From: Candidatus Nealsonbacteria bacterium
GTDB lineage: Bacteria > Patescibacteriota > Minisyncoccia > Minisyncoccales > RBG-13-36-15
Reading direction: 5' to 3'
Assembly: GCA_011050465.1 (NCBI GenBank)
Contig: DRFQ01000009.1
Coordinates: 334 to 64,333, forward strand
Length of the DNA: 64,000 bases
This document shows positions 36,441-49,725 of the stretch, piece by piece. Below the pieces are notes generated by a model. The model did no database searches and was not told the origin of the DNA. It worked only from the letters and a program-made list of their open reading frames with translations. Position 1 is the stretch's first letter. Each line of letters starts with the position of its first letter. Position numbers and translations under genes: made by a program.

Positions 36441-37349
36441 ATGTTTACTTCTTTAAAAAGGATTATTAAAGCAGGTTTCCTGAATTTTCGCCGTCAGGGC
36501 GGTTTTACCTTTGCTACGGTTTCTATTATGGTAATGACTATTTCCTTGATTACTTTTCTCTATTTTTTCCAGGGGATTGTTCAATATCTAGTTTTAAATC
36601 TTCAAGAAAAAGTTGACGTTTCAGTTTATTTTAAAAAAGACTCTCTTGAAATAGAGATTTTGGAGGCAAAAGAAGAAATTAGCAGGATTCCAGAAGTAAA
36701 GAGCATCGAATATGTATCACAGGAAGAAGCCTTGGATCGTTTCACCCAGAAACACAAAGACAATTCTCTCTTAATGGAAGCATTGGCTGAAGTAGGAGAT
36801 AATCCTTTATTGGCTTCTTTAAATATTAAAGCTTGGCAGGTAGATCAATATGAAGCTTTAGCTAATTTTTTAGAAGGCGCCCCTTTCCAGGATTTAATTG
36901 AGAAAGTAGATTATCACCAGAATAAAATTGTTATTGGGAAAATTTTTGATATTTCTTCTAATATTAGATTTGCCGGAATTATTTTTAGTTTAATTTTGGG
37001 AATAATTGCGATTGTTGTTGCTTTCAATACCACCAGATTAGCAATTTATAGTTCAGAAGAGGAAATTGCAACAATGAGATTGGTGGGCGCTTCCAACTGG
37101 TTTATCAGGGGGCCATTTCTGGCTCAAGGGATAATGGTAGGAATGATAGCCATTTTTATTACCATTTTGCTTGTTGCTTCAATAAATTTATTTTTGAGTC
37201 CAAAACTCGAAACCATTTTATCAGGATTCAGTCTTTTCGGTTATTTTATTAATAATTTTTGGACCTTATTCTTAATCCAGCTTACTGCTGGCATCGGCCT
37301 TAGTATAATTTCTAGTATGATAGCCATCAGGAAATATCTGAAAGTTTAA
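36441..37349 (+). CDS. ftsX: Cell-division permease-like protein FtsX
   Basis: One N-terminal TM helix, a periplasmic domain and three C-terminal TM helices. MRLVGASNWFIRGPF motif. Confidence 0.85.
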   Translation: MFTSLKRIIKAGFLNFRRQGGFTFATVSIMVMTISLITFLYFFQGIVQYLVLNLQEKVDVSVYFKKDSLEIEILEAKEEISRIPEVKSIEYVSQEEALDRFTQKHKDNSLLMEALAEVGDNPLLASLNIKAWQVDQYEALANFLEGAPFQDLIEKVDYHQNKIVIGKIFDISSNIRFAGIIFSLILGIIAIVVAFNTTRLAIYSSEEEIATMRLVGASNWFIRGPFLAQGIMVGMIAIFITILLVASINLFLSPKLETILSGFSLFGYFINNFWTLFLIQLTAGIGLSIISSMIAIRKYLKV

Positions 37350-37387
37350 ACATTCTGCCTCTTCGGTAGATACGCCGAGGAGGCGTA

Positions 37388-37461
37388 TGCGGGGTCGTCT
37401 AACGGTAGGACGGATGCCTCTGGAGCATTTAATCTAGGTTCGAATCCTAGCCCCGCAGCCA
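37388..37461 (+). tRNA. tRNA-Gln (CUG), CCA encoded
   Basis: U1-A72 acceptor TGCGGGG/CCCCGCA, D arm GTCT-AACGGTA-GGAC, anticodon arm GATGC-CTCTGGA-GCATT, T arm CTAGG-TTCGAAT-CCTAG, then GCCA. Confidence 0.9.
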
Positions 37462-37487
37462 TCATATGCTAAGTCAGGTGACCGAGA
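37456..37487 (+). repeat. Left direct repeat (att-like): cagccatcatatgctaagtcaggtgaccgaga
   Basis: It matches 46194-46225 at 30 of 32 positions and overlaps the tRNA-Gln 3-prime end. Confidence 0.85.
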
Positions 37488-37489
37488 TG

Positions 37490-37511
37490 CCCGGCATTGC
37501 CGGGTGTTTTT
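37490..37511 (+). terminator. Hairpin plus T-run downstream of tRNA-Gln
   Basis: cccggc-att-gccggg followed by TGTTTTT. Confidence 0.5.
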
Positions 37512-37581
37512 AGTTATTGACTTTTTTTGAAAATAGAACAGAATTAAGGATGAATTATTATTTATAAAAAGAAATTTATAT

Positions 37582-38043
37582 ATGAATTTCGAAAGCATTA
37601 TTAAGGGAAGAATTGCCAGTATTATTACTAGCTTAATGTTTCAAGACGCTGATTATTTAGTCGTAAATTACGGACATGAAAGTATCCCTGATCGCCTTGT
37701 ACAATTAGGCGTCTCAAAAGACGGTAAGGCCGCGGAAGTATTACTCACTAGCCCATCTTTTATTGTCATGAATAAAAAGGATCGTTCCGTTAATTTGCTC
37801 CAAATCAGATACCAAGGTGAGGGCGCTAGTGGTAGAAATATTATTTGGAGATATGAAAAAATGCAGAGATATTGGCCTGGTAGTCATTTATTATTAGTTC
37901 GTCCCAGAAAGCCTTACTTTTTTATAATGACCGTAACAAAAAATGGGCCTAAGCCCATTCCATTAATAGATTCTAAAATTTTCAATGTAGATAAGGGAAT
38001 AGTTTTGAAATTTGGGCAATTCGTTAAGAAGTTTCTTTCATAA
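37582..38043 (+). CDS. Hypothetical protein (153 aa), first gene of the element
   Basis: An intact ORF with no confident motif. Confidence 0.4.
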   Translation: MNFESIIKGRIASIITSLMFQDADYLVVNYGHESIPDRLVQLGVSKDGKAAEVLLTSPSFIVMNKKDRSVNLLQIRYQGEGASGRNIIWRYEKMQRYWPGSHLLLVRPRKPYFFIMTVTKNGPKPIPLIDSKIFNVDKGIVLKFGQFVKKFLS

Positions 38044-38066
38044 AAAAGCCCAAGATTAACGCGGTG

Positions 38067-38102
38067 CTTTGACTACACTGCCTACAGGCAGTGTAGTCAA
38101 AG
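38067..38102. repeat. Perfect palindrome, 17-bp arms with a 2-nt centre
   Basis: ctttgactacactgcct-ac-aggcagtgtagtcaaag. Confidence 0.9.
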
Positions 38103-38263
38103 AGGAGACATTTGTCAATACCAAATCCGTAGTCATTATGAATAACATCAATGAAACTGATATCGATAGCAATGATTTTTTGGAAGGAATAAGAGTCATG
38201 CTCAATTATATTTTATCAGAAAATAGGAGAAAGCGCAAGCGCAAAAATAGTTAGAAAGCAAAT

Positions 38264-38291
38264 AAAAACCGCTTTATAATAGGCGGTTTTT
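38264..38291. terminator. Bidirectional hairpin terminator
   Basis: aaaaaccgc-N10-gcggttttt, with A/T runs on both sides. It lies just past the recombinase stop. Confidence 0.55.
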
Positions 38292-38298
38292 ATTTTTA

Positions 38299-39615
38299 CT
38301 ATTTTTCCAGCAGGATTTTTTTGTCTTTTAGAATTAGTTTGCTTTTCAGAAAGAAGAGGAATTCTCTTTTTTCAACCAGCGTTCCTTCTCTGAGAAGATA
38401 CTTTGCGTAATTTCGTATATCGATATCAACGTTATTATTTTCTTTTTTATGGCCCAGTACTCCGATCCTGAATTTATTGAATCTTGTGATTTCCTGTTCT
38501 ATTCTTGATTTTACCCCTAACTCATCTAAATCAATTCTATCCATCAATTCTATCAACTCGTTGATTAAATTTGGTTCATTGACAGCAGGATTTTTACAAT
38601 CAATATTTCTGGCTTTCGTGCAGAAATAATAGACGTGGCGGTTTACACCACCATCTTTTAATTTTTTGAACTTTTCATCAGCTGATATTCCCGAACCGCA
38701 ATAGCCGCATTTAATCAGTTTCGTGAAAGCGAATTCTTTGCTCTCGGTTTTTGGAATAAAGTTTTCATTAAGCGTCGTCTGAACCCTATCAAATAATTCC
38801 TTATTTATAATCGGCGTGTGCTTGCCAATATACCACTTGTTACTTCCCACTGGATATTCAAACTCTCCGTAATAGAAGTGATTTCGGAGAATGAGATAAA
38901 TGTTGGCAAGCACAAGCAGCTTGCCGTTTTTAGTTTTGAATTTTATCTCTCTCAGCCAACGATATACCTTACGTCCGCTCCATTGTTCGCTTGCCACTCT
39001 TTCAAACATCTGCTTTATAACCGGAGCTCTCTTTGGGTCAATCCTCGCCTGGCACTTTTTATCAGCGTGTTTTTCGTTGAGGTAGCCTGTAGGAGCGACT
39101 CCCGGCCTAAGTCCCATCTCGCATCTGGTTCGCAGCCCTCGCTTCACATTTACCGCTTTGTTGTCATTCTCGAGCTTAGCTTGAGATCCCAATATCATAA
39201 GCATGAACTTTTCGTTCGGGTTATTAGTGAATCTTTGCCCGAATGTCCTTATTTCCAATAGAAGCTTTTTATCCATCAAATCTACGATAGAACCTAAGTC
39301 TCCGGCATTTCTGCTCAGCCGGTCTGGAGCCCAAGTTAAAATACCATTGTATTTTCCTTCTTTTATTTCAGCCAGCATTTGATTAAAAATCTCTCTTTGG
39401 CCGACTTCCTTTGAAGAATGAGATTCGCGCTTGATATCTACAACTTTGAGGTTGTCTTTTTCTGCCAAAACCAACATCTCTTTTACCTGCGATTCTATAG
39501 AAAGAGTTTGTTTATCTTCTGCTTCAGTTGATTTTCTGGCATACAGGCAGTAACGTATATCAACCTTAACAGGGGATTGAAAATTATTAAGTCGTTCTTT
39601 TGTCGCTTGTTCCAT
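38299..39615 (-). CDS. Large serine recombinase
   Basis: N-terminal resolvase domain (CLYARKSTEAEDKQTLSIESQ), a recombinase domain, and a zinc-ribbon CGYCGSG...YYFCTK. Length 438 aa. Confidence 0.9.
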   Translation of the reverse strand: MEQATKERLNNFQSPVKVDIRYCLYARKSTEAEDKQTLSIESQVKEMLVLAEKDNLKVVDIKRESHSSKEVGQREIFNQMLAEIKEGKYNGILTWAPDRLSRNAGDLGSIVDLMDKKLLLEIRTFGQRFTNNPNEKFMLMILGSQAKLENDNKAVNVKRGLRTRCEMGLRPGVAPTGYLNEKHADKKCQARIDPKRAPVIKQMFERVASEQWSGRKVYRWLREIKFKTKNGKLLVLANIYLILRNHFYYGEFEYPVGSNKWYIGKHTPIINKELFDRVQTTLNENFIPKTESKEFAFTKLIKCGYCGSGISADEKFKKLKDGGVNRHVYYFCTKARNIDCKNPAVNEPNLINELIELMDRIDLDELGVKSRIEQEITRFNKFRIGVLGHKKENNNVDIDIRNYAKYLLREGTLVEKREFLFFLKSKLILKDKKILLEK

Positions 39616-39753
39616 ATCCTTGAATAGTCCTTAATTATTATAATTCGACCTTTCAAGGAGAGGATGCCGCAACGGCTCTGATGAGTCCAGGCCCCATCAG
39701 TTGACAACTTTTCAACCCAAAATTCTTCACTAATTTCATGGATAGACAAAAAA

Positions 39754-39768
39754 CTGCCAAAATGGCAG
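39754..39768. promoter_or_regulatory. Palindrome ctgccaaaatggcag (candidate operator O1) in the divergent control region
   Basis: 6-bp arms. It shares the CCAAA(A)TGG core with the palindrome at 39823-39840. Confidence 0.4.
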
Positions 39769-39816
39769 AATTAAGGTAGTTTTAAGAGAAATCAAACTTA
39801 TTCACAGGTTAATCTC

Positions 39817-39846
39817 TTGACACCCGACCAAATGGTCGGGTATTAT
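39817..39846 (+). promoter_or_regulatory. Promoter of the lexA-like/hsdM operon with an embedded palindromic operator (cccgaccaaatggtcggg, 39823-39840)
   Basis: TTGACA (39817-39822), an 18-nt spacer made up of the 18-bp palindrome, then TATTAT (39841-39846). ATG 39853 lies 6 nt after the -10 box. Confidence 0.5.
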
Positions 39847-39852
39847 AATATA

Positions 39853-40500
39853 ATGACTATAAAAAAAGAAATTATTACCAGAAGACAAAAAGAGTTATTA
39901 TCTATTATTTACGAATATATTAAGGACACTGGATATCCGCCAACCTTTGAAGAAATGAGAAAAAGATTAAATGTGTCCTCAAACCAATCGATTATCGATC
40001 TTTTGGTAAAATTAGAAAAACAGGGAGTTATTAAACGAAATGAGTCTTCGGCTCGAGGTTTAGCAATGTTGCCTTTAGGATATAGGATGCTTGGCCAACC
40101 GTCACTTGCTGCTTTTTTAGGCATTACAAGTGCAGGAGCACCCATTGAGGCTATAGAAATATCGGGAGAATGGCAATCAGTTTCTTCGGATATTAAAAAA
40201 CTTAAGGACGAAGTTTTTCTTTTGAAAATTTCCGGTGATTCAATGATTAATGCCGGTATTGAAGACGGCGATGTTGTTTTAGTAAAGGATCAAAAAGAAT
40301 TTTCCTCTCGCGATATTGTCTTAGCTCAAGTAGGGGACGACTCGACTATCAAGCGTTTTATTTCAGAAGATACACCACCATATGTTTATCTTAAGCCGGA
40401 AAATCCAAAATATAATATTATTCTTTTTACCGAAGAAAGTCGACTTATAGGAAAGGTTATTTCTGTTTTTAAAAATGGCTATTGGAAGCCGGTTAAATAA
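39853..40500 (+). CDS. LexA-like S24-peptidase repressor
   Basis: N-terminal winged-helix region (LLSIIYEYIKDTGYPPTFEEM..SNQSIIDLLVKLEKQGVI), an Ala-Gly cleavage-site context (SAGAP), Ser in GDSM and Lys in TIKRF. Confidence 0.85.
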   Translation: MTIKKEIITRRQKELLSIIYEYIKDTGYPPTFEEMRKRLNVSSNQSIIDLLVKLEKQGVIKRNESSARGLAMLPLGYRMLGQPSLAAFLGITSAGAPIEAIEISGEWQSVSSDIKKLKDEVFLLKISGDSMINAGIEDGDVVLVKDQKEFSSRDIVLAQVGDDSTIKRFISEDTPPYVYLKPENPKYNIILFTEESRLIGKVISVFKNGYWKPVK

Positions 40501-40509
40501 TTAAAATCT

Positions 40510-42465
40510 ATGCCAACTAAAAAACTCAATAAAACCAAAGAAATAATTGATAAAATTTTTCGCGACCCAGAAATAACCTATGGTTTAAAAGAATTCGAAG
40601 AAATTGACTTCGAAAAAGTTTTAGAAATTACCGAGGAAAGTCGAGATAAATTTTACATTAAAGACATTAAATCAAAAAAACTAAAACTTGTTTTTGATGA
40701 ATCAAAAAAGCAGGGTAAACCCGAAGAAATTATTCGACAACTTTGGCTCTACAAACTTAATACTCAGTATAAATATCCTTTTGATCGTATAGATACAGAA
40801 AAAAGTATTCACTTTGGTCGAGAGATTCACGCCAAAGCTGCTGACATCGTTGTTTATAAAAAAGATAAAATCACGCCGTTTATTATCCTAGAGATTAAAA
40901 GTCCAACCGAAAAGAAAGGAATTGAACAACTTAAAAGCTATCTTTCTGCCGAAGGTTCAGAAATAGGGGTTTGGTCAAATGGTAAAGAGCGAGTAATATT
41001 ATATAGACCATATCCAAAAGAGTTTCAAGATTCTTTAAGTGATATACCTCGAGCCGATCAAACCATCGACGATTTATTTGAAATCAAAAAAACTTGGTCC
41101 GAATTAAATCCAAAATTTGATTTTGTTAGAATTATCAAACGTATAGAAGAATTAGCTCTCGCTGGTTCTGGAGCAAATGTTTTTGAAGAAATCTTTAAAA
41201 TAATTTATGCCAAACTCTATGATGAAAAACTGGCACGTGAGCGGCGCGAGAACCAAGAAGTGCTTTTTAGGAAATATCGTGATCCCGAGAAAACATTTGA
41301 GGTGATCAACGACCAGCTTTTTAAAAATGCAATTAAAGAATGGCCAGATACTTTTGAAGAGTCAGATCGTATTAAGCTTTCTTCAGCAAGGCTTAATATC
41401 TGTGTGCCATTTTTGGAAAATGTTCGTCTTTTTGAATTAGGGAAAGGCGAACTGGAAATTATTGATAGTGCGTTTGAATATTTAATCACGGAAGTTTCAA
41501 AAGGTAAAAAAGGACAGTATTTTACACCTCGGCATGTCATCAAAATGTGTGTAAAGATGACGAATCCTAAAGCTGACGAATATATTATTGATCCCGCCTG
41601 TGGCTCCGGCGGTTTTCTTTTACATACAATGTATTATGTTTGGGAGAAATTAACCACAGAGGCAGCAAAAAATGATTATGCAGCAAAGTACCTCTTTGGG
41701 TTGGATTTTGACGAGAATATGCGTCGTATTTCCCAGGCTTTAATGCTTATTGCAGGTGATGGTAGACATCATATTTTTAAACGTGATTCACTTGATGCTC
41801 GGGACTGGCAAGGAGTAGAAAGCGAGGAGGCACGAGTAGCGTTGAAGCCGCTTTTATTAAAATTGGAAAATCCATCTGAAGCAAAAGAAAATCAACTTAC
41901 TTATAGGTATTTGAATTTTGACATTTTATTGACCAATCCGCCTTTTGCCGGAGAAAATCCCGAGTCAGGATTGTTGCGCCAATATGAACTTGCTAAAAAA
42001 GATGGCAAATTAAAGAATAATGTTGAGAGGCACATTCTTTTTATTGAGCGTTCTCTTGACGTCATTCGTCCTGGCGGCCGAATGGCAATCGTCTTGCCGC
42101 AAGGCGTCTTAAATAATACTAATATGGAGTTTGTCCGAGAATATGTTCTTAGTAAAGCAAGGATTTTAGCCGTAGTCGGACTCCATGTTAACACATTTAA
42201 ACCTCATGCTGGAACCAAAACTTCTATTTTATTTTTACAAAAATGGAATGAAAAAGAAAAACCACCTAAAAATTATCAAATTTTTATGGCGGTTTCAAAA
42301 AAGCCAGGCAAAGATAATTCCGGAGATTATGTGTATAAAAAAGATGATAAAGGAAATTATATTCACGATGCCAAAGGCCGTAAAGTTTTAGACCACGACC
42401 TCGGTGAGATCGCCGAAGCATTTGTTGATTTTGCCAAAAAACAAAAATTTAGTTTTTGGGAATAG
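40510..42465 (+). CDS. hsdM: Type I-like N6-adenine DNA methyltransferase (HsdM) fused to an N-terminal HsdR_N/PD-(D/E)xK-like domain
   Basis: Motif I DPACGSGGFL and motif IV NPPFAG. The N-terminal region AADIVVYKKDKITPFIILEIKSP...QLKSYL...WSNG resembles the HSDR_N nuclease-like fold (D...ExK). Confidence 0.85.
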   Translation: MPTKKLNKTKEIIDKIFRDPEITYGLKEFEEIDFEKVLEITEESRDKFYIKDIKSKKLKLVFDESKKQGKPEEIIRQLWLYKLNTQYKYPFDRIDTEKSIHFGREIHAKAADIVVYKKDKITPFIILEIKSPTEKKGIEQLKSYLSAEGSEIGVWSNGKERVILYRPYPKEFQDSLSDIPRADQTIDDLFEIKKTWSELNPKFDFVRIIKRIEELALAGSGANVFEEIFKIIYAKLYDEKLARERRENQEVLFRKYRDPEKTFEVINDQLFKNAIKEWPDTFEESDRIKLSSARLNICVPFLENVRLFELGKGELEIIDSAFEYLITEVSKGKKGQYFTPRHVIKMCVKMTNPKADEYIIDPACGSGGFLLHTMYYVWEKLTTEAAKNDYAAKYLFGLDFDENMRRISQALMLIAGDGRHHIFKRDSLDARDWQGVESEEARVALKPLLLKLENPSEAKENQLTYRYLNFDILLTNPPFAGENPESGLLRQYELAKKDGKLKNNVERHILFIERSLDVIRPGGRMAIVLPQGVLNNTNMEFVREYVLSKARILAVVGLHVNTFKPHAGTKTSILFLQKWNEKEKPPKNYQIFMAVSKKPGKDNSGDYVYKKDDKGNYIHDAKGRKVLDHDLGEIAEAFVDFAKKQKFSFWE

Positions 42466-42470
42466 AAATT

Positions 42471-44369
42471 ATGAAATTATTTCTTAAAGCAATTGAATTC
42501 GAAGATTACAGAAATATAAAAAATGGCTCAAGACTAATTTTTGAGCCTATTACTACTTTAGTTGGAGCAAATGAGAGCGGGAAGAGTAATATAATTAGAG
42601 CCATACAATTGTTATCCGAGGATTTTAATGAAAATGACACGAAAATGGGCAGTATTAGGGCATCAAGAAACGAAATGCCATTACTTAGGTATTTTTTTGA
42701 ACTTAAAAGTAAAGACCTGTTCGGATATTTTAAACAAAGTATTAAAAATTTCAGGGATAAAAATCTGATTTGTTTAATCGTAAGTGGTGAAACAAATGAA
42801 TTAATGTTATCAGATCAACGTTTTTCATTAAGGGAAATTGAATATAGAAATCAATGGAAGAATACTAGTGGTCAGCCCATGAAATTTAAGGCTCGCAAAG
42901 GAAAAGAGATAGAATTACAACAAAACGAAAAAATTTTTGGGGATAATGATAATAAATTTGCTATAGCGAAACTAGCTAGAGAGAATAAAATAACGAAACT
43001 TACGACTGAAGAAATAGACTCAGATGTTATAGATAAAATTTTTAAAGATTTTCTTCCAGAAATAGAATACTGGGAATATGACCAAGATAAACATTATCTT
43101 CCAGACCATGTATTCTGGGATAAATTTTTAACAGCGCCAGATAACTTTTTACCAGTTAAAAATTTATTTTTAATTGCTTGCTCCGAAGGAAATCTAACAG
43201 ATTTTAATACTGCCTTATCTAGTTTTAAAGGTAAAGATCATGAGATTCAAAAATATCTTGATGATGTTAGTAAGTCGCTTAACAAAATTATCAAAAAAAC
43301 ATGGAAGCAAAGCAATATAGAACTACAACTTTTTTATCAAACAGATAAATTGAGATTTGATATATACGAAGGAGGTCGCAGAACTCCTCCAAGCGTAAGA
43401 AGCGATGGTTTAAAATGGTTTCTTTCCTTTTTGCTTGATTTTAGATCAAGAGGTGAGTTGCAAAATAAGATTATTTTATTTGATCAACCGGGTGAGAAAT
43501 TACACCCCGGTGGTCAAAAAGAGTTACGAGAGCGTTTTACAGAAATTGCTTTAAAAAATCAAGTGATTTTTGCAACCCAATCTCCATTTTTAATTGATCG
43601 TAATTCTTGGTCAAAAGTAAAATTTTTACAAAGAAAAAATGGAGACCCTGAAATTAAGCAACCTACTAAATATGATGTAAAGAACGATGAATTACTTCGG
43701 CATTCACTTGGGTATTCACTGGCAGATGTGGGACAAGCCAATGACTTTAATATTGTCGTAGAGGGTTATACCGACCAGTTTTTATTATTAGATATAGGAA
43801 GAAGACTTAATGAAATAGCGTCTTATTTAGAAAAGAAACCGATTATTAATTTAAATAAGATAGCTATCTTTGATTCGCGTGGATTTACCACAATTAAAAA
43901 AAGGGTTGATGAATTACTACAAGCTAATTTGCATGCCATCGGCCTTTATGATGGCGATGATGTTAGTAAAAAACGGTTCTCTCAAGATCGTAAATCTAAG
44001 AGATTTAGAAATCTTCTATTTTCCTTAGATGAAATAGTTGATCAGAATAATTATAAAACGATTGAGGATTTAGTCCCTGAAAGATTATGGGAGAAATCAT
44101 GCAAGGAATATTTTAAAAAGAATCGGTCTAAATTAACTAAGAAAAACTTTTGTCATCCTCGTTGGGGAAAAATTAAGGAATGGTACAAGAATAACTATAA
44201 TACCGAAATTACCCGAAAAGAGAAAGAGAGTCTATGGGAAGTTATTTTTGATAATTGGGATCAATATTTTGATAGCGTAAAAGATATTTCAAAAATTTCT
44301 GAGATTAATATAACAAAACAGGCATTAGAAAGTTTAGCTAAAAAAGTTGCTCGTGGAAAGAATAAATAA
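42471..44369 (+). CDS. OLD-family protein: ABC-type ATPase fused to a C-terminal TOPRIM nuclease domain
   Basis: Walker A GANESGKS, SDGLKWFLSF (signature-like), ILFDQPGEKLHP (Walker B region), and TOPRIM VVEGYTDQ ... GLYDGDD. The start is taken at ATG 42471 (MKLFLK). Confidence 0.75.
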   Translation: MKLFLKAIEFEDYRNIKNGSRLIFEPITTLVGANESGKSNIIRAIQLLSEDFNENDTKMGSIRASRNEMPLLRYFFELKSKDLFGYFKQSIKNFRDKNLICLIVSGETNELMLSDQRFSLREIEYRNQWKNTSGQPMKFKARKGKEIELQQNEKIFGDNDNKFAIAKLARENKITKLTTEEIDSDVIDKIFKDFLPEIEYWEYDQDKHYLPDHVFWDKFLTAPDNFLPVKNLFLIACSEGNLTDFNTALSSFKGKDHEIQKYLDDVSKSLNKIIKKTWKQSNIELQLFYQTDKLRFDIYEGGRRTPPSVRSDGLKWFLSFLLDFRSRGELQNKIILFDQPGEKLHPGGQKELRERFTEIALKNQVIFATQSPFLIDRNSWSKVKFLQRKNGDPEIKQPTKYDVKNDELLRHSLGYSLADVGQANDFNIVVEGYTDQFLLLDIGRRLNEIASYLEKKPIINLNKIAIFDSRGFTTIKKRVDELLQANLHAIGLYDGDDVSKKRFSQDRKSKRFRNLLFSLDEIVDQNNYKTIEDLVPERLWEKSCKEYFKKNRSKLTKKNFCHPRWGKIKEWYKNNYNTEITRKEKESLWEVIFDNWDQYFDSVKDISKISEINITKQALESLAKKVARGKNK

Positions 44370-44375
44370 CTACTT

Positions 44376-45737
44376 ATGGTTACTCATCTCATAATCCAAA
44401 AATCACAACTAGAAGGCGGTTTGCGTCTTGATGCGGAATATTATCAACCGGAATATTTAGAGTTAAAAAATAGATTGTGTAAAACCGAATCATATAAATT
44501 CTGGAAAGATATTAAAGGAAACTTTATTACGGGACCCTTTGGCTCAGAATTTAATGTTGAAAACTATGTTTTAAACGGGAAATATCGGTATGTTCGTGGA
44601 AAAGACGTTAAAGAATTTTTCCTTTCTGACGATGATAACGTATATATACCCCAAAAAGACTTTGAAAGACTTAAAAAATATTCATTAAAAGAAAATGATA
44701 TTTTAATTTCAGTTGTTGGAACGCTTGGAAATGCTGCTATTATTGATAATTCTGTTCCTCCAGCAATTTTTAGCTGTAAGAGTACAGTTTTTCGTAGCGA
44801 ATCGATAAATCCTTACTATTTTATTAGTTATCTTAATTCGCTTTATGGTCGAAAATTATTAGGCCGTAATGTACGCGGCGCAGTTCAGACAGGACTTAAT
44901 ATTGATGATTTGAGATTATTGCCAGTATTTATTCCACCAAAACAACAACAGGAATTGATTGGTTCGTTGGTCTCGAAGGCAAAGGAGGAATATGAAAATA
45001 CTAAATTATTTTATTCTCAAGCTGAAGATTTACTTTTAGAAGAATTGGGTTTAAAAGATTTTGAAGTCGGGGATGATTTGTCTTATGTTGTTAATCTTTC
45101 AGATTTAAAATTAGTTAACCGTATTGATGCCGAGTACTTTCAGCCGAAACACGAGAAATTAATATCAAAAATTAAAAACCAAAATATAAAAAAACTTGCT
45201 GATTTAGTTTCAATAAAAAAGGGGATTGAGATAGGAAGTGAGAAATATCAAAAAGAGGGAAAGTTATTTGTTCGAGTGAGCAATCTTTCAAAACAGGGGA
45301 TTATTGATAAGGATCAGAAATATTTAAGCGAAGAATTATATCAGAAACTAAAAAAAGATTTTGAGCCAAAAGCAGGAGAAATTTTACTAACTAAAGATGC
45401 AACTCCGGGCATGGCTTATTTATTAAAAGAATCAATTGAGGGAATAATTGCCGGCGGAATTTTAAGATTAAAACCCGAAACAAAAATCGAACCAGAATAT
45501 TTAGCTTTAGTGATAAATTCTATTGTTGGTCAATCACAAGTAGAACGAGATACCGGTGGTTCAGTAATTATCCACTGGCGACCAGAACAAATTAAAAATT
45601 GTTCAATTCCAATTTTACCTAAATCTACCCAGCAAAAAATTGCTGATTTGGTTCGCCAATCCCACGAAGCTCGCAAAAAAGCAAAAGAATCATTAGAACA
45701 AGCCAAACAAAAAGTCGAAGAATTAATTGAGAAATAA
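44376..45737 (+). CDS. hsdS: Type I restriction-modification specificity subunit (two target-recognition domains)
   Basis: Duplicated TRD openings RLDAEYYQPEY and RIDAEYFQPKHEKL. Conserved helical spacers (QQQELIGSLV, QQKIADLVRQ). Confidence 0.85.
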   Translation: MVTHLIIQKSQLEGGLRLDAEYYQPEYLELKNRLCKTESYKFWKDIKGNFITGPFGSEFNVENYVLNGKYRYVRGKDVKEFFLSDDDNVYIPQKDFERLKKYSLKENDILISVVGTLGNAAIIDNSVPPAIFSCKSTVFRSESINPYYFISYLNSLYGRKLLGRNVRGAVQTGLNIDDLRLLPVFIPPKQQQELIGSLVSKAKEEYENTKLFYSQAEDLLLEELGLKDFEVGDDLSYVVNLSDLKLVNRIDAEYFQPKHEKLISKIKNQNIKKLADLVSIKKGIEIGSEKYQKEGKLFVRVSNLSKQGIIDKDQKYLSEELYQKLKKDFEPKAGEILLTKDATPGMAYLLKESIEGIIAGGILRLKPETKIEPEYLALVINSIVGQSQVERDTGGSVIIHWRPEQIKNCSIPILPKSTQQKIADLVRQSHEARKKAKESLEQAKQKVEELIEK

Positions 45738-45748
45738 TCAAAAATATT

Positions 45749-46018
45749 ATGACAAAAATTAAAGTTAAAAAAATAACAGATGGTGACACCTTTCAGGGCA
45801 CAAGGGGTGGATTTTACCGCTTAGCTAATGTTGATGCTCCCGAAAAAAGAGAGCGGGGGTATCAAAAGGCCAAAGAAACCTTAAAAGAACTTATTGAAGG
45901 CGAAAAGCTTATTGTTAAAGTTGAGGGCACATCTTATGGTAGAAAAGTTGCAACCGTCAGAATACCAGGCGAAAAAACGAGTATTAATGAAAAAATGAGG
46001 CGTAGGGGTTATAAATAG
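45749..46018 (+). CDS. Small staphylococcal-nuclease-like (SNase/thermonuclease fold) protein
   Basis: ITDGDTF, YRLANVDAPE and SYGRKVATV match the SNase Ca-binding and catalytic residues. At 89 aa it is shorter than typical SNases. Confidence 0.65.
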   Translation: MTKIKVKKITDGDTFQGTRGGFYRLANVDAPEKRERGYQKAKETLKELIEGEKLIVKVEGTSYGRKVATVRIPGEKTSINEKMRRRGYK

Positions 46019-46193
46019 AATTTCCTCAGGTCGTTTTTAAAATGGTACGTCATACTATCCCAAATGGAACACCCCCTTTCTGTGTCCCATTTGTCCCATT
46101 TTAGCTTAAAAAGCCCCGACCGAGACGCCTAAATGGAACACGGCCAAAATCGCCCAAAACACCCTTAAAACTGGGGTTCAGAACTGAGGTACA

Positions 46194-46225
46194 CAGCCAT
46201 CCTATGCTAAGTCAAGTGACCGAGA
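46194..46225 (+). repeat. Right direct repeat (att-like): cagccatcctatgctaagtcaagtgaccgaga
   Basis: 30/32 match to 37456-37487. Confidence 0.85.
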
Positions 46226-46258
46226 CTTGTTCGATTTGAGTCCTGAGCCAGCAATATA

Positions 46259-47224
46259 ATGATTGATCAACTATCCAATTTAATAGTTAATCTGGACCTT
46301 GTCTTTCTGGCTATTTCGCCAATGGTTTTTGTGTTTAGCGTTACCTTGTTGGGCGACGCTATTGGACATGCGCAACAAGAGGAAAAAGCTGCCAGAGACA
46401 ATGATAAAATCACCATACAAAAAGATATAACAGAGGTGGAAACAGCCTTAGAAGAAACTAAAAGGAAGGGATATATCACCGACAAACTTGATGAAAATTT
46501 AACACGATTACAAAGTAGACGGCAGCAAACTGAAAAGAAAATTAGGGATATAAAAATTAAATATAGCGCTATTGATCTTAGAAATACTGTTGTATATCCT
46601 TGTTTTTCTTTTCTACTCTCTATTTTAATTGACCCGCTTAGAAATCTATCGGGAAATTTTGATATATCTTATTATTTAATTTTCTTTTCACAAACACTTT
46701 TATTTTTATACGGTTTTATAAAAATTTATAAAAGTCTTCAACTCGTACAACAGACAACCACCAAGAAAAAATCTGGAGAATACTTTAGGCATATAAAAAC
46801 AGCTTTTAAAGATGCGCTGGAAGAATATTATCAAAGCACAAAAGAAGAGGTTTCTGTAGAGTTTAAAGATATAGCTTTTCCGTTAAATATAGCGCCGTCA
46901 ACAGAATTAAATATTTTTCTAAGGACGGAGCTAATAAAAGGCTCTCTTCTAAGAAACGCATCTGTATGGTTTTATGTCGCTGATGGCTTAGAGTTAATTG
47001 ATCCTCCCGAAACTAGTAGTTGGAGGCAATCGGCAGACTATAACCCACCAAACATCCGAACAGTTAAAGTTGATCTTGGTGATTTAAGTATAGGTCAATA
47101 TATTCCAAGGACTCTAAAACTTAAAATGCCAACAATTCCAGGAAAATACTTACTTAGATATGTAGTCAAGGGGGATGGTTATTCTGGACCATCAAAAGAT
47201 TTAACATTATTGGTGACTGGATAA
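46259..47224 (+). CDS. Hypothetical membrane protein with coiled-coil and a C-terminal beta-rich domain
   Basis: One N-terminal TM helix, a charged helical segment, two to three TM helices and a C-terminal region of about 120 aa. No motif recognised. Confidence 0.45.
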   Translation: MIDQLSNLIVNLDLVFLAISPMVFVFSVTLLGDAIGHAQQEEKAARDNDKITIQKDITEVETALEETKRKGYITDKLDENLTRLQSRRQQTEKKIRDIKIKYSAIDLRNTVVYPCFSFLLSILIDPLRNLSGNFDISYYLIFFSQTLLFLYGFIKIYKSLQLVQQTTTKKKSGEYFRHIKTAFKDALEEYYQSTKEEVSVEFKDIAFPLNIAPSTELNIFLRTELIKGSLLRNASVWFYVADGLELIDPPETSSWRQSADYNPPNIRTVKVDLGDLSIGQYIPRTLKLKMPTIPGKYLLRYVVKGDGYSGPSKDLTLLVTG

Positions 47225-47352
47225 ATTCGTCCCTGACCGAGACGCGTCAATGAGACACGCCTCAAACCCCCTAATTTCCCCTTAAAACACAGGTTCTAGA
47301 CTAAGGATGTCAGCAACAGTCAGCGCAGTATCGAGGCCGACCGAGAGGCCTC

Positions 47353-47404
47353 AAAATCGCCAACCTGTCCGCCTCTGGAGGAGAAGGCGGTTTTTTGATA
47401 GAAT
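47353..47404 (+). repeat. 52-nt junction module (hairpin terminator plus TGATAGAAT extended -10)
   Basis: aaaatcgccaacctgtccgcctctggaggagaaggcggttttttgatagaat. A 50/52 identical copy lies at 61900-61951. Shorter variants lie at 48873-48903 and 62572-62600. Confidence 0.85.
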
Positions 47405-47410
47405 AGAAAA

Positions 47411-48001
47411 ATGAAACGAGTAAAAATTAACCCACCATATATTCCCTTAACTCAACAGAAATTATGTTGCGTGCCTTGTGCTATTCAGTGGATTTTGTTA
47501 AGAAGGGGTTTGAAATTAGTTGACCAAGAAACAATAGGAAATGCATTAGGTTTAATGGTGCCTAAAAAACACAAGAATTTATTTATTAGTAAGGTAAAAG
47601 TAGGAAAGAAAACTCCAAAAAGAGGCTGGGGAACTAATGAAACAGATGGTTCAAAAATGAACAGGTTTTTCAAAAAACACAGAATTCCGTTACGGGCCAA
47701 GAAGGTTTTTTATTCAGAAATTAAAGACGCGGCAAAGTTGATTATAGAAAGCCTGAAAAAGGGCAATGATTTAATGCCGGTTACTTATATGTCAATAATA
47801 GAACCTAAAGAGAAATATGGACACGCATTATTGATTAGTGAAATTATTTTAAGCAAGAAGCCGAAAGTTATTGTTGGTGACCCTCGTTTTCTTTCAAAAA
47901 AATTCTGGGAAGTTGACTTAGATAGGCTCATTAAAGGAATGAGCAAGAAGTTTGACGGAGAAGAAAGGGGAATATATATTTTTACCAAGCATAAAATATG
48001 A
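47411..48001 (+). CDS. Hypothetical protein, possible papain-like cysteine peptidase fold
   Basis: The Q..CC...C...W near the N-terminus and GHALLI later suggest a Gln/Cys...His arrangement. The evidence is weak. Confidence 0.35.
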   Translation: MKRVKINPPYIPLTQQKLCCVPCAIQWILLRRGLKLVDQETIGNALGLMVPKKHKNLFISKVKVGKKTPKRGWGTNETDGSKMNRFFKKHRIPLRAKKVFYSEIKDAAKLIIESLKKGNDLMPVTYMSIIEPKEKYGHALLISEIILSKKPKVIVGDPRFLSKKFWEVDLDRLIKGMSKKFDGEERGIYIFTKHKI

Positions 48002-48522
48002 AAATATATTTCGCTGCTCACGCAACATCAAAAGATAATGAAGCTGAAATTGCTTCTGGCTGGAAAGATGTTGAGTTGTCTGAATTGGGTATCCAACAAG
48101 CAAAAGAATTAGGCGAGAGGTTTAAAGATATAAAGATAGATTTAATCTGTTGTTCAGATTTAAAAAGGGCTGTAGATACAGTGAAAATAGCGTTTAATGA
48201 CAAATATCCCGTTATTGCAGATAAAAGGCTAAGAGAGCTTAATTACGGTGATCTCAATGGCAAGCCAAGCGAAGTTGTAGGTTATATGAAAAAAGAAAGG
48301 ATAAAAGAGTCCTTTCCTAATGGAGAAAGTTATGAGTTGGCAATGGTTAGAATTCACGAGTTTTATAAAGAGCTAAAAGAAAACCATCCAGAAAAGACAG
48401 TTTTAGTTGTTGGTCATCGTGCTACCCAATTCGGTTTAGATACGCTTGCTGGCGGTAAAACCCTTGAAGATTGCTTAAGCGTGCCATTTAAATGGCAGCC
48501 ATACTGGAAATACGAGTTTTAA
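47998..48522 (+). CDS. Histidine phosphatase (phosphoglycerate mutase) family protein
   Basis: YFAAHATSKDN (AHA in place of the canonical RHG), LSELGIQQA and VVGHRAT. ATGA overlap with the upstream gene. Confidence 0.7.
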   Translation: MKIYFAAHATSKDNEAEIASGWKDVELSELGIQQAKELGERFKDIKIDLICCSDLKRAVDTVKIAFNDKYPVIADKRLRELNYGDLNGKPSEVVGYMKKERIKESFPNGESYELAMVRIHEFYKELKENHPEKTVLVVGHRATQFGLDTLAGGKTLEDCLSVPFKWQPYWKYEF

Positions 48523-48535
48523 TTAAATAAAAAAT

Positions 48536-48856
48536 ATGAAGAAATTTAAAATTAGTAAGATTATTAGAAAAATTAAGAAATCTTGGAAGCCTATTGATGT
48601 AGTTGATTTTAACAACTATACATTAAGAATAGCGTTATTCAAAGGAGAATATCATTGGCATAAGCACGATAAGGAAGATGAATTTTTCTATGTTTATCAG
48701 GGTAAAATTTTAATTGAGACAGAATTAGGGAATATGATACTAAATAAAGGAGAAGGTTGCGTAATTCCCAAAAGAATAAAACATAAACCTTCGTCTAAAG
48801 TGAAATCATATGTGTTTATGATTGAACCAAAGAAATTAGCAAGTAGGGGAGACTAA
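48536..48856 (+). CDS. Cupin-domain protein
   Basis: HWHKHDKEDEFFYVYQGK ... IPKRIKHKP matches the two cupin motifs. Confidence 0.7.
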   Translation: MKKFKISKIIRKIKKSWKPIDVVDFNNYTLRIALFKGEYHWHKHDKEDEFFYVYQGKILIETELGNMILNKGEGCVIPKRIKHKPSSKVKSYVFMIEPKKLASRGD

Positions 48857-48925
48857 TTAAGCATAAGGCAATAAAAATCGCCAAGAAGGCGGTTTTTTGA
48901 TATTCGTCCGAGAGTTGCCTTGGGC

Positions 48926-48954
48926 TTGACTTATTTGCGGCAAATTGATAGATT
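48926..48954 (+). promoter_or_regulatory. Sigma70-like promoter
   Basis: TTGACT (48926-48931), a 17-nt spacer, then TGATAGATT. The SD AAGGAGG precedes ATG 48996. Confidence 0.45.
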
Positions 48955-48995
48955 ATTCTTAGCATCATTTCCAACAAAGAGGTAAGGAGGGTTAA

Positions 48996-49556
48996 ATGAT
49001 GAAGCCTCAAACAATAAAGAGAAGCTCGTTCCTTTATAGATACACAAAATGGCTTTGGGGAAGCTTTATTACTGATACAAACGTTGAAAACACCAAGAAT
49101 GCCTGCAACTTTCTTTGGGGTAGGTTAATTGGTGGAACTTTAATCTTGATATTCGGAAGCATCGTGCTCTTTGGGATAGTAGTTCCCATAGTCTGGTTTC
49201 TCGGCTACCATTTTATCCGCAAAGAAGACAAAAACAAATATACCAAAGACAGGATGTGCTACAATTATAAATTCAACGGGAAGACTTATCAAAGATTCGC
49301 CCCTTGGGAGATAGCAATAGCTATTAGCGTCCTAGGCGCGATTATCTACCTCTCTGCTTTCAATCAGTCTTTGGGAACTGACATTGGTAAGATAACAGGT
49401 CTCGCTGTTGCCTCACTAATCGGCCTCATTCTGATTCTAGCCTTGCTACTTACTGTTTTTTCCAGGGGTTGGAGAAGCACAATTGGCAAAGCCATCAGAG
49501 AAACGACCGCGACAAGACTCAAGAATGCCTGTCCTCCAATTAAATATGTAGATTAA
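48996..49556 (+). CDS. Hypothetical membrane protein
   Basis: Three or four hydrophobic helices. No motif recognised. Confidence 0.45.
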   Translation: MMKPQTIKRSSFLYRYTKWLWGSFITDTNVENTKNACNFLWGRLIGGTLILIFGSIVLFGIVVPIVWFLGYHFIRKEDKNKYTKDRMCYNYKFNGKTYQRFAPWEIAIAISVLGAIIYLSAFNQSLGTDIGKITGLAVASLIGLILILALLLTVFSRGWRSTIGKAIRETTATRLKNACPPIKYVD

Positions 49557-49712
49557 CAAATAGAAAATTACGCGAGCTTATCCTAAAAGCGGTGCGACAT
49601 CAAGTCAAACCGCCTTTTTGTTACTAAACACCCAACAATTCCCTTGATTGTTTCAACACAAGCTCCGGATATTGAACTAATTCTGCCCAGCTAATGGTTC
49701 TAACGTCGTCCA

Positions 49713-49725
49713 AGCCCCGCAGCCA
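49713..49725 (+). repeat. Exact 13-nt copy of the tRNA-Gln 3-prime end (agccccgcagcca)
   Basis: Identical to 37449-37461. It abuts the start of the 147-nt repeat. Confidence 0.8.

What the first reader, a model, noticed from the sequence alone, without database searches (positions are those of the whole stretch)
39754..39855. Defence operon under a LexA-like repressor with paired CCAAATGG-core palindromes and a leaderless start
An 18-bp palindrome (cccgaccaaatggtcggg) fills the spacer of the TTGACA/TATTAT promoter. A second palindrome with the same core (ctgccaaaatggcag) lies 55 nt upstream, toward the recombinase gene. The lexA-like ATG is 6 nt after the -10 box, implying a leaderless mRNA. 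hsdM follows 9 nt after the repressor stop. Expression of the methylase/OLD/S/SNase genes would thus be tied to a self-cleaving (RecA/SOS-type) repressor instead of the small C-proteins usual for R-M control.
Basis: inference. Interest (0 to 1): 0.6.

Follow-up and report, generated by a model that had tools for sequence, protein, structure and literature searches.

The report
LexA-headed restriction-modification operon on mobile island
A DNA-damage-sensing repressor gene (lexA) is the first gene of a restriction-modification defence operon carried on a small mobile island, and the same lexA-then-DNA-methylase arrangement recurs in 34 of 35 related candidate-phyla-radiation bacteria, which suggests these tiny bacteria wire their restriction defences to an SOS-type switch.

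Summary
The core observation holds. An 18-bp palindrome (39823-39840) fills the 18-nt spacer of TTGACA/TATTAT. The lexA ATG (39853) lies 6 nt after the -10, and the next gene starts 9 nt after the lexA stop. The second palindrome (39754-39768) exists but is not a LexA-type site: it scores -6.5 bits against 27.4, is not conserved, is of an ordinary kind, and looks like a minus-strand terminator hairpin.

Comparative data change the picture. The spacer palindrome (core GAC-yAwwTr-GTC) and the 6-9 nt gap from -10 to ATG are conserved in about 37 Patescibacteria lexA promoters. In 34 of 35 evaluable loci, lexA is followed directly by a DNA methyltransferase or R-M module of at least seven kinds. 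Four of these are LexA-methyltransferase fusion proteins. None of 60 other lexA loci shows this (p = 5e-25).

The window's "hsdM" is a type IIB-like nuclease-methylase fusion with a separate S subunit and no HsdR. An OLD-like ATPase sits between them as variable cargo.

In this genome the operon lies on an 8.7-kb serine-recombinase element inserted in tRNA-Gln.

Whether this LexA also controls a wider SOS regulon could not be tested. The key prior paper (Sánchez-Osuna et al. 2017) was not readable.

The parts
37388..37461 (+). tRNA-Gln (CTG). Its last 13 nt (37449-37461, AGCCCCGCAGCCA) form the left copy of the island's direct repeat (attL core).
   Evidence: ARAGORN, Rfam tRNA at 60.9 bits, repeat search.
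37462..46197 (.). Integrated element 1 (~8.7 kb). It holds ORF153, a large serine recombinase and the lexA-RM-OLD-S-SNase operon. Its right end carries a decayed copy of the tRNA 3' part (46171-46197).
   Evidence: Relative L232 has tRNA-Gln followed directly by the sequence found at window 49726 onward. Junction alignment.
37582..38043 (+). ORF153, with no family match.
38299..39615 (-). Large serine recombinase (Resolvase + Recombinase + Zn_ribbon_recom; best NCBIfam hit is CcrB, below cutoff), transcribed divergently from lexA.
39754..39768 (-). It is a small 6+3+6 hairpin followed by a T-run on the minus strand. It is not a LexA box and is locus-specific.
39798..39806 (+). DnaA-box-like 9-mer TTATTCACA (one mismatch to TTATCCACA), 10 nt upstream of the -35. 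Its position is conserved in lexA promoters of the clade.
39817..39846 (+). lexA promoter: -35 TTGACA (39817-22), an 18-nt spacer that is the operator itself, and -10 TATTAT (39841-46).
39823..39840 (.). Predicted LexA operator CCCGACCAAATGGTCGGG (clade consensus ccCGACyAwwTrGTCGGG).
   Evidence: Scores 27.4 bits with a matrix built from other genomes. Conserved in ~37 lexA promoters.
39853..40500 (+). lexA (215 aa): LexA_DNA_bind + Peptidase_S24, with Ala94-Gly95 cleavage site and Ser130/Lys167 dyad. The mRNA is predicted to be leaderless.
40510..42465 (+). RM subunit (651 aa): an N-terminal PD-(D/E)xK nuclease domain (HSDR_N_2; D112, E128, K130) fused to a gamma-type N6-adenine methyltransferase. 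Type IIB-like.
42471..44369 (+). OLD/AriA/GajA-like ABC ATPase (632 aa), sitting in the variable cargo slot between the RM and S genes.
44376..45737 (+). Specificity (S) subunit, 453 aa, with two target-recognition domains.
45749..46018 (+). Short SNase-like ORF (89 aa, partial domain). It is the last gene of the tight cluster and is not conserved in relatives.
46198..49712 (.). Element 2 of the tandem island (ORF321, ORF196, His_Phos, cupin, ORF186). It begins with the same left-end sequence as element 1.
49713..49725 (+). Right copy of the 13-bp direct repeat AGCCCCGCAGCCA, followed by the ancestral flank of tRNA-Gln.

Best explanation
This is a LexA-headed, self-repressed defence operon. 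A strong sigma-70 promoter has its whole 18-nt spacer occupied by a two-fold symmetric operator. A LexA dimer bound there would exclude RNA polymerase. Transcription is predicted to start at or next to the A of the lexA ATG, giving a leaderless mRNA. It would then run without a terminator through four more genes: a type IIB-like nuclease-methyltransferase (RM) gene, an OLD-like ATPase/nuclease gene, the S subunit gene and a short SNase-like ORF. The gaps between these genes are 9, 5, 6 and 11 nt.

Negative autoregulation by LexA would hold R-M and defence expression low and constant. It would also give a burst of expression when the cassette enters a cell that has no repressor. RecA-stimulated self-cleavage at Ala94-Gly95 after DNA damage would derepress the whole operon. 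Such damage could come from phage attack or from self-restriction.

The arrangement is not a peculiarity of this locus. In Patescibacteria this LexA clade, with its operator and leaderless promoter, is a stable 'head' behind which R-M cassettes of many types are exchanged and even fused to LexA. In this genome the unit is carried on an 8.7-kb serine-recombinase element integrated in tRNA-Gln.

Shown: the sequence features, their conservation, the gene linkage, the fusions and the island boundaries. Inferred: LexA binding to the box, the transcription start, co-transcription and RecA-dependent induction.
For: - **LexA identity and catalytic residues:**
- **Operator:** it is conserved between -35 and -10 in lexA promoters of 57-88% and 45-56% identical LexAs from Parcubacteria, Microgenomates and Saccharibacteria. 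Many copies keep only the right half-site (CCAGAATAAATAGTCGGG). That fits protein binding and does not fit a hairpin.
- **Metagenome scan:** among 120 exact 18-mer hits, all 15 with promoter context precede lexA. The rest are terminator hairpins.
- **Leader length:** the distance from -10 to start codon is 6-9 nt in 31 of 37 promoters. There is a genome-wide peak at exactly 6 nt, and only 10 of 52 genes have an SD-like motif.
- **Operon continuity:** no terminator lies between lexA and the next gene.
- **Linkage:** 34 of 35 loci have a methyltransferase or R-M module directly after lexA, against 0 of 60 other lexA loci. Fisher p = 5e-25.
- **Fusions:** four independent contigs encode LexA_DNA_bind + Peptidase_S24 + N6_N4_Mtase in one protein.
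- **Cassette swapping:** close LexA relatives carry different R-M types, and L013 keeps a 63-aa remnant of the RM gene.
- **RM subunit:** its best solved-structure relative by sequence is RM.BsaXI (E = 1.9e-30). D112/E128/K130 are invariant in 18 homologs. No HsdR occurs in any of the 14 complete RM+S modules examined. Homologs on plasmids of cultured bacteria are RM+S pairs or single-chain fusions, without HsdR or LexA.
- **Island:** 13-bp direct repeats, an empty-site-like flank in L232 and a repeated left end.
Against: - There are no binding, transcript or cleavage data. Everything regulatory is inferred from sequence and conservation.
- Weak promoter-like matches exist inside the operon, at a frequency expected by chance. 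Internal promoters could therefore uncouple downstream genes from LexA.
- The box was found only at lexA promoters, so there is no independent second target to confirm that LexA, and not another factor, reads it.
- It is not established whether this is the cell's only LexA or whether it controls repair genes.
- The L211 locus has a 243-nt gap before its methyltransferase, and L018 has no methyltransferase, so the linkage is not absolute.
Confidence: 0.72

Rival explanations
1. Ordinary chromosomal SOS LexA with passengers. On this view the gene is the host's global SOS repressor, autoregulated as everywhere. The R-M cassettes merely accumulate in a recombination or insertion hotspot at its 3' side, with no selected regulatory meaning.
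For: - The LexA and its operator are clade-wide and highly conserved. Hundreds of homologs at 70% identity or more appear.
- R-M types are swapped behind a stable lexA.
- L086 and L087 share upstream synteny and an orthologous tyrosine recombinase, as expected for a resident gene.
Against: - A mere hotspot does not explain the 0-16 nt or overlapping junctions in most loci.
- It does not explain the consistent co-orientation, or the absence of terminators.
- It does not explain the four in-frame LexA-methyltransferase fusions.
- In the window, lexA lies inside an integrated element rather than in the core chromosome.
- No box was seen at any other gene in ~350 kb of CPR sequence around lexA loci, nor at four recA/ssb/recR/dnaB regions.
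Confidence: 0.2
2. Co-location without co-regulation. On this view the RM, OLD and S genes are expressed from their own internal promoters, and LexA represses only itself.
For: Several 9-of-12 promoter-like matches lie within 41194-44743 on the plus strand. The genome is AT-rich, so weak promoters are easy to form.
Against: - Those matches occur at chance frequency: 31 found against 33 +/- 6.6 in shuffles.
- Intergenic gaps of 5-11 nt leave no room for promoters.
- Conservation of tight or overlapping junctions, plus the fusions across the clade, argues for co-expression.
Confidence: 0.08
3. The spacer palindrome is not a LexA site. It could instead be the target of another protein, such as the recombinase, the methyltransferase or a controller, or it could be a structural DNA element.
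For: There is no direct binding evidence. The same 18-mer occurs as terminator stems in unrelated bacteria.
Against: - It travels with lexA whatever the downstream R-M type and whether or not a recombinase is present.
- It lies upstream of the transcribed region.
- Half-site degeneracy destroys hairpin potential in many orthologs while the right half stays invariant.
- Its size, symmetry and promoter overlap are typical of LexA boxes (established knowledge; NAR 2021, PMC8565304).
Confidence: 0.05

Closest known systems
LexA autoregulation through an SOS box overlapping its own promoter (E. coli CTGT-N8-ACAG; Gram-positive CGAAC-N4-GTTCG)
   Same: It has a winged-HTH plus S24 self-cleaving repressor, a palindromic operator of about 14-18 bp inside its own promoter, and the Ala-Gly / Ser / Lys residues.
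   Different: The box sequence differs (CGAC-yAwwTr-GTCG; same 14-bp span as the Gram-positive box but different half-sites). The promoter is leaderless. The operon partners are R-M/defence genes rather than repair genes. No second regulon member was found.
Sánchez-Osuna, Barbé & Erill 2017, Environ Microbiol 19:3465 (SOS network of Patescibacteria)
   Same: It deals with the same superphylum and the same regulator. It very probably defined a LexA motif from lexA promoters.
   Different: I could not read it. I do not know whether it reports this motif, the R-M linkage or the fusions. Later papers from that group, searched here for the terms 'restriction', 'methyltransferase' and 'methylase', mention no R-M link.
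Controller (C) protein-regulated R-M systems (PvuII, AhdI, Esp1396I)
   Same: A small regulator gene heads the R-M operon. It is autoregulated at an operator in its own promoter, and at least C.PvuII transcripts are leaderless (my knowledge, not checked here). The logic includes an establishment burst in a naive host.
   Different: C proteins are Xre-type HTH activator-repressors with no peptidase domain and no DNA-damage input. No C gene or C-box is present here.
Methyltransferases with an N-terminal DNA-binding region that repress their own R-M operon (M.SsoII, M.EcoRII, M.MspI; my knowledge)
   Same: The LexA-N6_N4_Mtase fusions (L025, L131, L170, L196) likewise join an operator-binding domain to the methyltransferase.
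   Different: The DNA-binding module here is a complete, cleavable LexA.
DNA-damage-responsive regulators of defence systems: CapH/CapP (CBASS), CapW/BrxR WYL regulators (my knowledge)
   Same: Defence operon transcription is kept off by a repressor that is inactivated after DNA damage.
   Different: The protein families are unrelated. Here the canonical RecA-dependent LexA would be used, and the controlled systems are R-M.
Type IIB R-M enzymes (BcgI, BsaXI; single-chain AloI/CjeI)
   Same: The RM subunit has an N-terminal PD-ExK nuclease and a gamma N6A-methyltransferase, with a separate two-TRD S subunit and no HsdR. The best solved-structure match by sequence is RM.BsaXI. Plasmid homologs are RM+S pairs or single chains.
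   Different: Double-sided cleavage is untested. Extra cargo genes (OLD-like, NYN, KAP NTPase, DUF3800) are inserted between RM and S.
S24 repressors of mobile elements (phage CI, SXT SetR; my knowledge)
   Same: A self-cleaving repressor carried on an integrative element ties element genes to the host SOS signal.
   Different: This one is a true LexA (TIGR00498) rather than a CI-type HTH_3 repressor. It controls R-M rather than excision, transfer or lysis.

Membership tests
LexA (TIGR00498) | N-terminal LexA winged-HTH domain plus C-terminal S24 peptidase domain, scoring above the curated cutoff | tested here: met
   Pfam LexA_DNA_bind 58.7 bits and Peptidase_S24 86.9 bits. TIGR00498 147.8 bits against a cutoff of 110.95.
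LexA (TIGR00498) | Ala-Gly cleavage site and Ser/Lys catalytic dyad | tested here: met
   A94-G95, S130 and K167 are invariant in 23 homologs and aligned with the E. coli and T. maritima LexA motifs.
LexA (TIGR00498) | Palindromic operator in its own promoter (autoregulation) | tested here: met
   The palindrome is conserved between -35 and -10 in ~37 orthologous promoters. Binding itself was not tested.
LexA (TIGR00498) | RecA*-stimulated self-cleavage | not testable with these tools
   Needs biochemistry.
LexA as SOS master regulator | The same box upstream of DNA repair or TLS genes (recA, uvr, dinB and others) | tested here: inconclusive
   No other site in the 64-kb window, in ~350 kb around 38 lexA loci, or in four CPR recA/ssb/recR/dnaB regions. 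No whole genome known to carry this LexA could be scanned.
Type I R-M | HsdR translocase-nuclease subunit together with HsdM and HsdS | tested here: not met
   M-like and S genes are present. No HsdR occurs in the window or in any of the 13 relatives with a complete RM+S module.
Type IIB R-M (BcgI/BsaXI-like) | One polypeptide with a PD-ExK nuclease and an N6A methyltransferase, plus a separate (or fused) S subunit | tested here: met
   RM.BsaXI is the best solved-structure hit by sequence, E = 1.9e-30. D112/E128/K130 are invariant in 18 homologs. The S subunit has two TRDs. RM+S or single-chain homologs without HsdR occur on plasmids.
Type IIB R-M (BcgI/BsaXI-like) | Cleavage on both sides of a bipartite site | not testable with these tools
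   Needs enzymology.
MADS (methylation-associated defence system) | MAD2, MAD3 and MAD5 above curated cutoffs, together with the other mad genes | tested here: not met
   MAD2 scores 300 against 720, MAD5 168 against 400, and MAD3 28 against 420. No other mad genes are in the operon.
C-protein-controlled R-M | Small Xre-type C protein and C-box | tested here: not met
   No such gene lies in the operon. The regulator is LexA.
OLD-family nuclease | ABC ATPase domain followed by a TOPRIM domain | tested here: inconclusive
   AAA_15/AAA_21 are clear. The PADLOC Old model scores 74.9 bits over residues 329-551. TOPRIM is seen only weakly, in the L017 homolog.
tRNA-integrated genomic island | Direct repeat of the tRNA 3' end, a recombinase gene, and an uninterrupted site in a relative | tested here: met
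   A 13-bp direct repeat, a large serine recombinase, and the L232 flank matching window 49726-49870. Tandem structure shown.

The most novel reading that the evidence does not exclude
In candidate-phyla-radiation bacteria, this LexA clade has been taken over as the general controller of restriction-modification systems. R-M and defence cassettes would be its main or only regulon. Cassettes of unrelated types would be plugged in behind one conserved leaderless promoter-operator-lexA head, sometimes fused to LexA itself, and the unit would move on integrative elements. Restriction and modification in these organisms would then be DNA-damage-inducible through RecA, which would be a transcriptional counterpart of restriction alleviation and of damage-triggered defence activation.
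Probability: 0.4. Interest if true: 0.85.

Novelty: new variant of a known kind. Interest (0 to 1): 0.7.

Why it matters
R-M systems must be regulated tightly. The known solutions are C proteins, autoregulating methyltransferases and antisense RNAs. A clade-wide use of the SOS repressor itself as the head gene of R-M operons would be a new regulatory solution. The evidence for it here includes LexA-methyltransferase fusion proteins and swapping of unrelated R-M types behind one conserved promoter-operator.

It would link genome defence, self-restriction damage and the DNA-damage response directly in a huge, uncultured part of bacterial diversity.

It also offers a compact, portable part: a 55-bp leaderless promoter/operator plus lexA. 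And it gives a concrete, testable prediction for cultivable Saccharibacteria and for metatranscriptomes.

If the 2017 Patescibacteria SOS study already noted the linkage, the value shrinks to four things: the fusions, the cassette-swapping evidence, the type IIB reclassification and the mobile-island context.

Tried and rejected
1. **Second palindrome as a LexA operator.** Rejected. It scores -6.5 bits, is not conserved, is of an ordinary kind, and looks like a minus-strand terminator.
2. **Other boxes in the window.** GACCAAATGGTC with up to 3 mismatches gave 45 matches against 43.5 expected. The best other matrix hit is 16.9 bits, inside an ORF at 55616-55633. I do not regard it as a site.
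3. **Extra sites in L009 (16.8 bits, inside a gene) and L132 (nested inverted repeats, wrong centre).** Discounted.
4. **Phage origin.** No relative of this LexA lies on IMG/VR contigs. The 16-mer box hits in viral contigs are terminators.
5. **MADS membership and MANTIS similarity.** Rejected.
6. **Classical type I R-M.** Rejected for lack of HsdR.
7. **General linkage to recombinases.** Not found. Only L086 and L087 share a tyrosine recombinase, and the serine recombinase is unique to the window.
8. **Regulon test through recA.** The L024 recA promoter has different palindromes. Three other CPR recA loci have no room for a promoter and no box. However, those genomes are not known to own this LexA.
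9. **Rfam on the island and the structured spacer at 49.6-49.9 kb.** Only the tRNA was found.
10. **Literature.** Sánchez-Osuna et al. 2017 is not held. Searches for LexA with R-M in CPR found nothing.
Full report
**1. The observation**

- TTGACA is at 39817-22.
- The 18-bp palindrome CCCGACCAAATGGTCGGG is at 39823-40 and fills the spacer.
- TATTAT is at 39841-46, and the ATG at 39853 lies 6 nt later.
- The lexA stop is at 40498-40500, and the next ATG is at 40510.

In a consensus scan of 37300-47500 this is the best sigma-70 match, with 11 of 12 positions.

The second palindrome CTGCCAAAATGGCAG is at 39754-68 as stated, but it is a different object.
- Its arm sequence and arm spacing differ from the first palindrome.
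- It scores -6.5 bits with the operator matrix, against 27.4 for the spacer palindrome.
- 6+3+6 palindromes occur 38 times in the window against 29 +/- 5 in shuffles.
- It is missing from every relative, including L086, whose operator is identical.
- On the minus strand it is a hairpin followed by TTTTTTG.

**2. Whose genome, and is it a LexA?**

The window is a 37.8% GC contig of a Parcubacteria (Nealsonbacteria-like) organism from marine sediment. The identical locus occurs on several assemblies. The rest of the window is housekeeping.

The 215-aa protein has LexA_DNA_bind and Peptidase_S24 domains. It passes NCBIfam's lexA equivalog cutoff. It aligns end to end with T. maritima and E. coli LexA, with Ala94-Gly95, Ser130 and Lys167 in register.

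**3. The palindrome is the clade's lexA operator**

I collected lexA loci from GTDB species representatives, from contigs encoding close homologs, and from a metagenome scan for the 18-mer.

In about 37 promoters the same layout recurs:
- TTGAC(A), then ccCGACyAwwTrGTCGGG, then TAtnAT;
- then a start codon 6-9 nt later in 31 of 37 cases, exactly 6 nt in 16.

G4, A5, G13, T14 and C15 of the 18-mer are invariant. The centre is A/T. The left half is often degenerate (AGAAT) while the right half stays intact. That pattern fits a protein site and does not fit a hairpin.

In the metagenome scan, all 15 sites with promoter context sit directly before a lexA gene. The other ~105 are ordinary terminator stems in unrelated bacteria.

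So the conserved signal is GAC-N6-GTC, not CCAAATGG. Conservation between relatives starts about 55 nt before the ATG and ends at it.

**4. Leaderless start**

Only 10 of 52 genes in the window have an SD-like motif. There is a sharp peak of -10-like hexamers ending exactly 6 nt before start codons: 8 genes, several with an extended TGn, against about 1 at other distances.

Leaderless initiation is therefore likely for lexA, but it is a habit of this genome and not a special device of this operon.

**5. The unexpected part: lexA is almost always followed by R-M**

Of 35 loci with enough downstream sequence, 34 have a DNA methyltransferase or R-M module directly after lexA. Gaps run from -23 to +42 nt, apart from one of 243 nt.

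| Module after lexA | Loci |
|---|---|
| ~650-aa nuclease-methylase family found in the window (S subunit seen downstream in 14 of the 19) | 19 |
| 615-628-aa N6_Mtase plus a half-size S | 4 |
| Eco57I-type methyltransferase plus DpnII or Tsp45I endonuclease | 3 |
| 252-aa protein plus N4/N6 methyltransferase | 2 |
| Different N4/N6 methyltransferase behind a 63-aa remnant of the 650-aa gene (L013) | 1 |
| Dam-like D12 methyltransferase | 1 |
| LexA_DNA_bind + Peptidase_S24 + N6_N4_Mtase fused in one 477-497-aa protein, followed by an HNH or a DUF6996/6997 protein (L025, L131, L170, L196) | 4 |

As a control, I examined 60 other lexA loci from the same scan. They come from Firmicutes, Actinobacteria, Bacteroidota and others, and include CPR LexAs with a Gram-positive-type box. 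None has a methyltransferase downstream. Fisher p = 5e-25.

On a LexA tree the R-M types are interspersed. The window (650-aa type) is sister to L086 (N4/N6 type), and next to them is L087 (Eco57I-type methyltransferase plus DpnII). So cassettes are exchanged behind a stable lexA head.

**6. What the downstream genes are**

*The "hsdM".* It has an N-terminal HSDR_N_2 domain whose D112, E128 and K130 (PD-(D/E)xK) are invariant in 18 homologs. Its best solved-structure relative by sequence is the type IIB enzyme RM.BsaXI. No HsdR is present in any of the 14 complete RM+S modules, counting the window and 13 relatives. Homologs at 41-46% identity on Klebsiella and cyanobacterial plasmids occur as methylase+S pairs or as one long chain, without HsdR and without LexA. 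MAD2 and MAD5 of MADS are the nearest curated families, but the scores are far below cutoff. I therefore read the module as a type IIB-like RM+S system.

*The cargo slot.* The slot between RM and S holds variable cargo:
- an OLD/AriA/GajA-like ATPase in the window and in L017;
- NYN plus a KAP NTPase in L089, and NYN in L006;
- DUF3800 in L009.

*The SNase-like ORF.* It is short and is not conserved in relatives.

**7. Mobile context**

The last 13 nt of tRNA-Gln (37449-61) recur at 49713-25.

In relative L232 (FtsX 73% identical), tRNA-Gln is followed directly by sequence ~90% identical to window 49726-49870. In L231, ftsX-tRNA-Gln is followed by unrelated housekeeping genes.

A decayed copy of the tRNA 3' part lies at 46171-97. 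It is followed by the same left-end sequence that follows the intact tRNA.

The insertion is therefore a tandem pair:
- **Element 1** (37462-46197) holds ORF153, a CcrB-like large serine recombinase and the whole lexA operon.
- **Element 2** (46198-49712) shares the left end.

Recombinases are not generally linked to lexA-R-M units elsewhere, and no relative lies on IMG/VR contigs.

**8. Mechanism proposed**

LexA bound in the spacer would block RNA polymerase. The leaderless polycistronic mRNA would make LexA first and the R-M/defence proteins after it. This gives a burst of expression in a naive cell and low, constant expression afterwards. RecA-stimulated cleavage would derepress the operon after DNA damage.

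The fusions argue that LexA and methyltransferase act together.

Which physiological logic applies is inference. The candidates are boosting defence during phage attack, raising methylation after repair synthesis or self-restriction, and helping the cassette establish in a new host.

**9. What stays open**

I could not scan a whole genome that owns this LexA.

No second box was found in the window, in ~350 kb around 38 lexA loci, or in four CPR recA/ssb/recR/dnaB regions. In those regions recA sits in an rpoBC-ftsK-HTH_25-recA cluster with almost no upstream spacer. This leans toward a small or R-M-only regulon but does not prove it.

The 2017 paper on the Patescibacteria SOS network could not be read. 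The motif, and possibly the linkage, may already be described there.

**10. Verdict**

It is a new variant of known kinds: LexA autoregulation, controller-regulated R-M, and damage-responsive defence regulators.

Noticed in passing
window 39798-39806; lexA promoters of L006-L025, L086-L089, L116-L227: A DnaA-box-like 9-mer (TTATCCACA) is perfect in 21 of 37 lexA promoters and has one mismatch in 11 more. It usually lies 8-10 nt upstream of the -35, and in five cases it is inverted, three of them 5-6 nt upstream. It also occurs upstream of the divergent LexAs L031 and L032, which carry a Gram-positive-type box. In the window the 9-mer is not a general promoter element: 24 matches with up to 1 mismatch against 15.7 expected, none perfect. 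This suggests DnaA input into lexA/R-M expression.
   Followed up: partly
L025 4989-6425; L131, L170, L196 (oriented coordinates): LexA-DNA methyltransferase fusion proteins of 477-497 aa (LexA_DNA_bind + Peptidase_S24 + N6_N4_Mtase). They are followed by an HNH endonuclease or a DUF6996/DUF6997 protein. L131 continues with two ThsB-like TIR genes.
   Followed up: partly
window 49726-49900 and 51190-51330; L232 11017-11200: A conserved, GC-rich non-coding element follows tRNA-Gln. It has two T-arm-like motifs (GGTTCGAGTCC / GGTTCGAGTCG) and repeated GTATCGAGGnCGACCGA units. It is present twice in the window, flanking the polyprenyl synthase gene. Rfam found no family in 37000-51000, which covers the first copy but not the second. 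It could be tRNA-derived integration scars or an undescribed RNA.
   Followed up: partly
window, whole: The genome is Shine-Dalgarno-poor (10 of 52 genes). It shows a sharp peak of -10-like hexamers, several with extended TGn, exactly 6 nt before start codons (for example at 29319, 47411, 51360 and 55862). This implies widespread leaderless mRNAs.
   Followed up: partly
window 38067-38102: A perfect 17-bp inverted repeat (CTTTGACTACACTGCCT / AGGCAGTGTAGTCAAAG, 2-nt loop) lies between ORF153 and the 3' end of the serine recombinase gene, inside element 1. A separate terminator-like hairpin lies at 38260-38295. Its function is unknown.
   Followed up: no
L013 1557-1772: A 72-aa ORF is a remnant of the N-terminus of the 650-aa RM gene (51% identity over 63 aa). 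It is left between lexA and a different methyltransferase, a fossil of in-situ cassette replacement.
   Followed up: yes
L024 9480-9545: Upstream of a Parcubacteria recA lie two overlapping palindromes, TTCGTGAATATTCGCGAA and CGCGAATTTAATTCGCG. They are unlike the GAC-N6-GTC box and unlike this genome's own lexA promoter, and may be the operator of another regulator.
   Followed up: no
L234, L235, L236, L237: In several CPR lineages recA lies in a conserved rpoB-rpoC-ftsK-HTH_25(RodZ-like)-recA cluster, with about 20-30 nt or an overlap before recA, next to a divergent rpsR-ssb-rpsF cluster.
   Followed up: no
L031-L033: Other Saccharibacteria and Peribacteria LexAs (~40% identical) have TTGACA-...TGAACG... 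promoters resembling the Gram-positive box and no methyltransferase downstream. So two LexA types exist in CPR.
   Followed up: partly
window 51000-56000: GC content jumps to 0.44-0.51, against ~0.35 elsewhere. The region holds a run of large proteins without any Pfam domain (1055, 379, 365, 345 and 307 aa; a following 600-aa protein has only a faint Big_13 hit). It may be another acquired region or a cell-surface gene cluster.
   Followed up: no
window 17483-20277: There are two dCTP deaminase-like genes and two thyX genes in tandem (dcd-thyX-dcd-thyX).
   Followed up: no
L132 (oriented) 1390-1470: A nested inverted-repeat structure (ttgacaagaat...ctccgacgtttcagtcggag CCCGACCATAGCGTCGGG ...attcttgtcaa) lies between two large genes, 2.4 kb upstream of lexA. 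It resembles the box only in its arms.
   Followed up: partly
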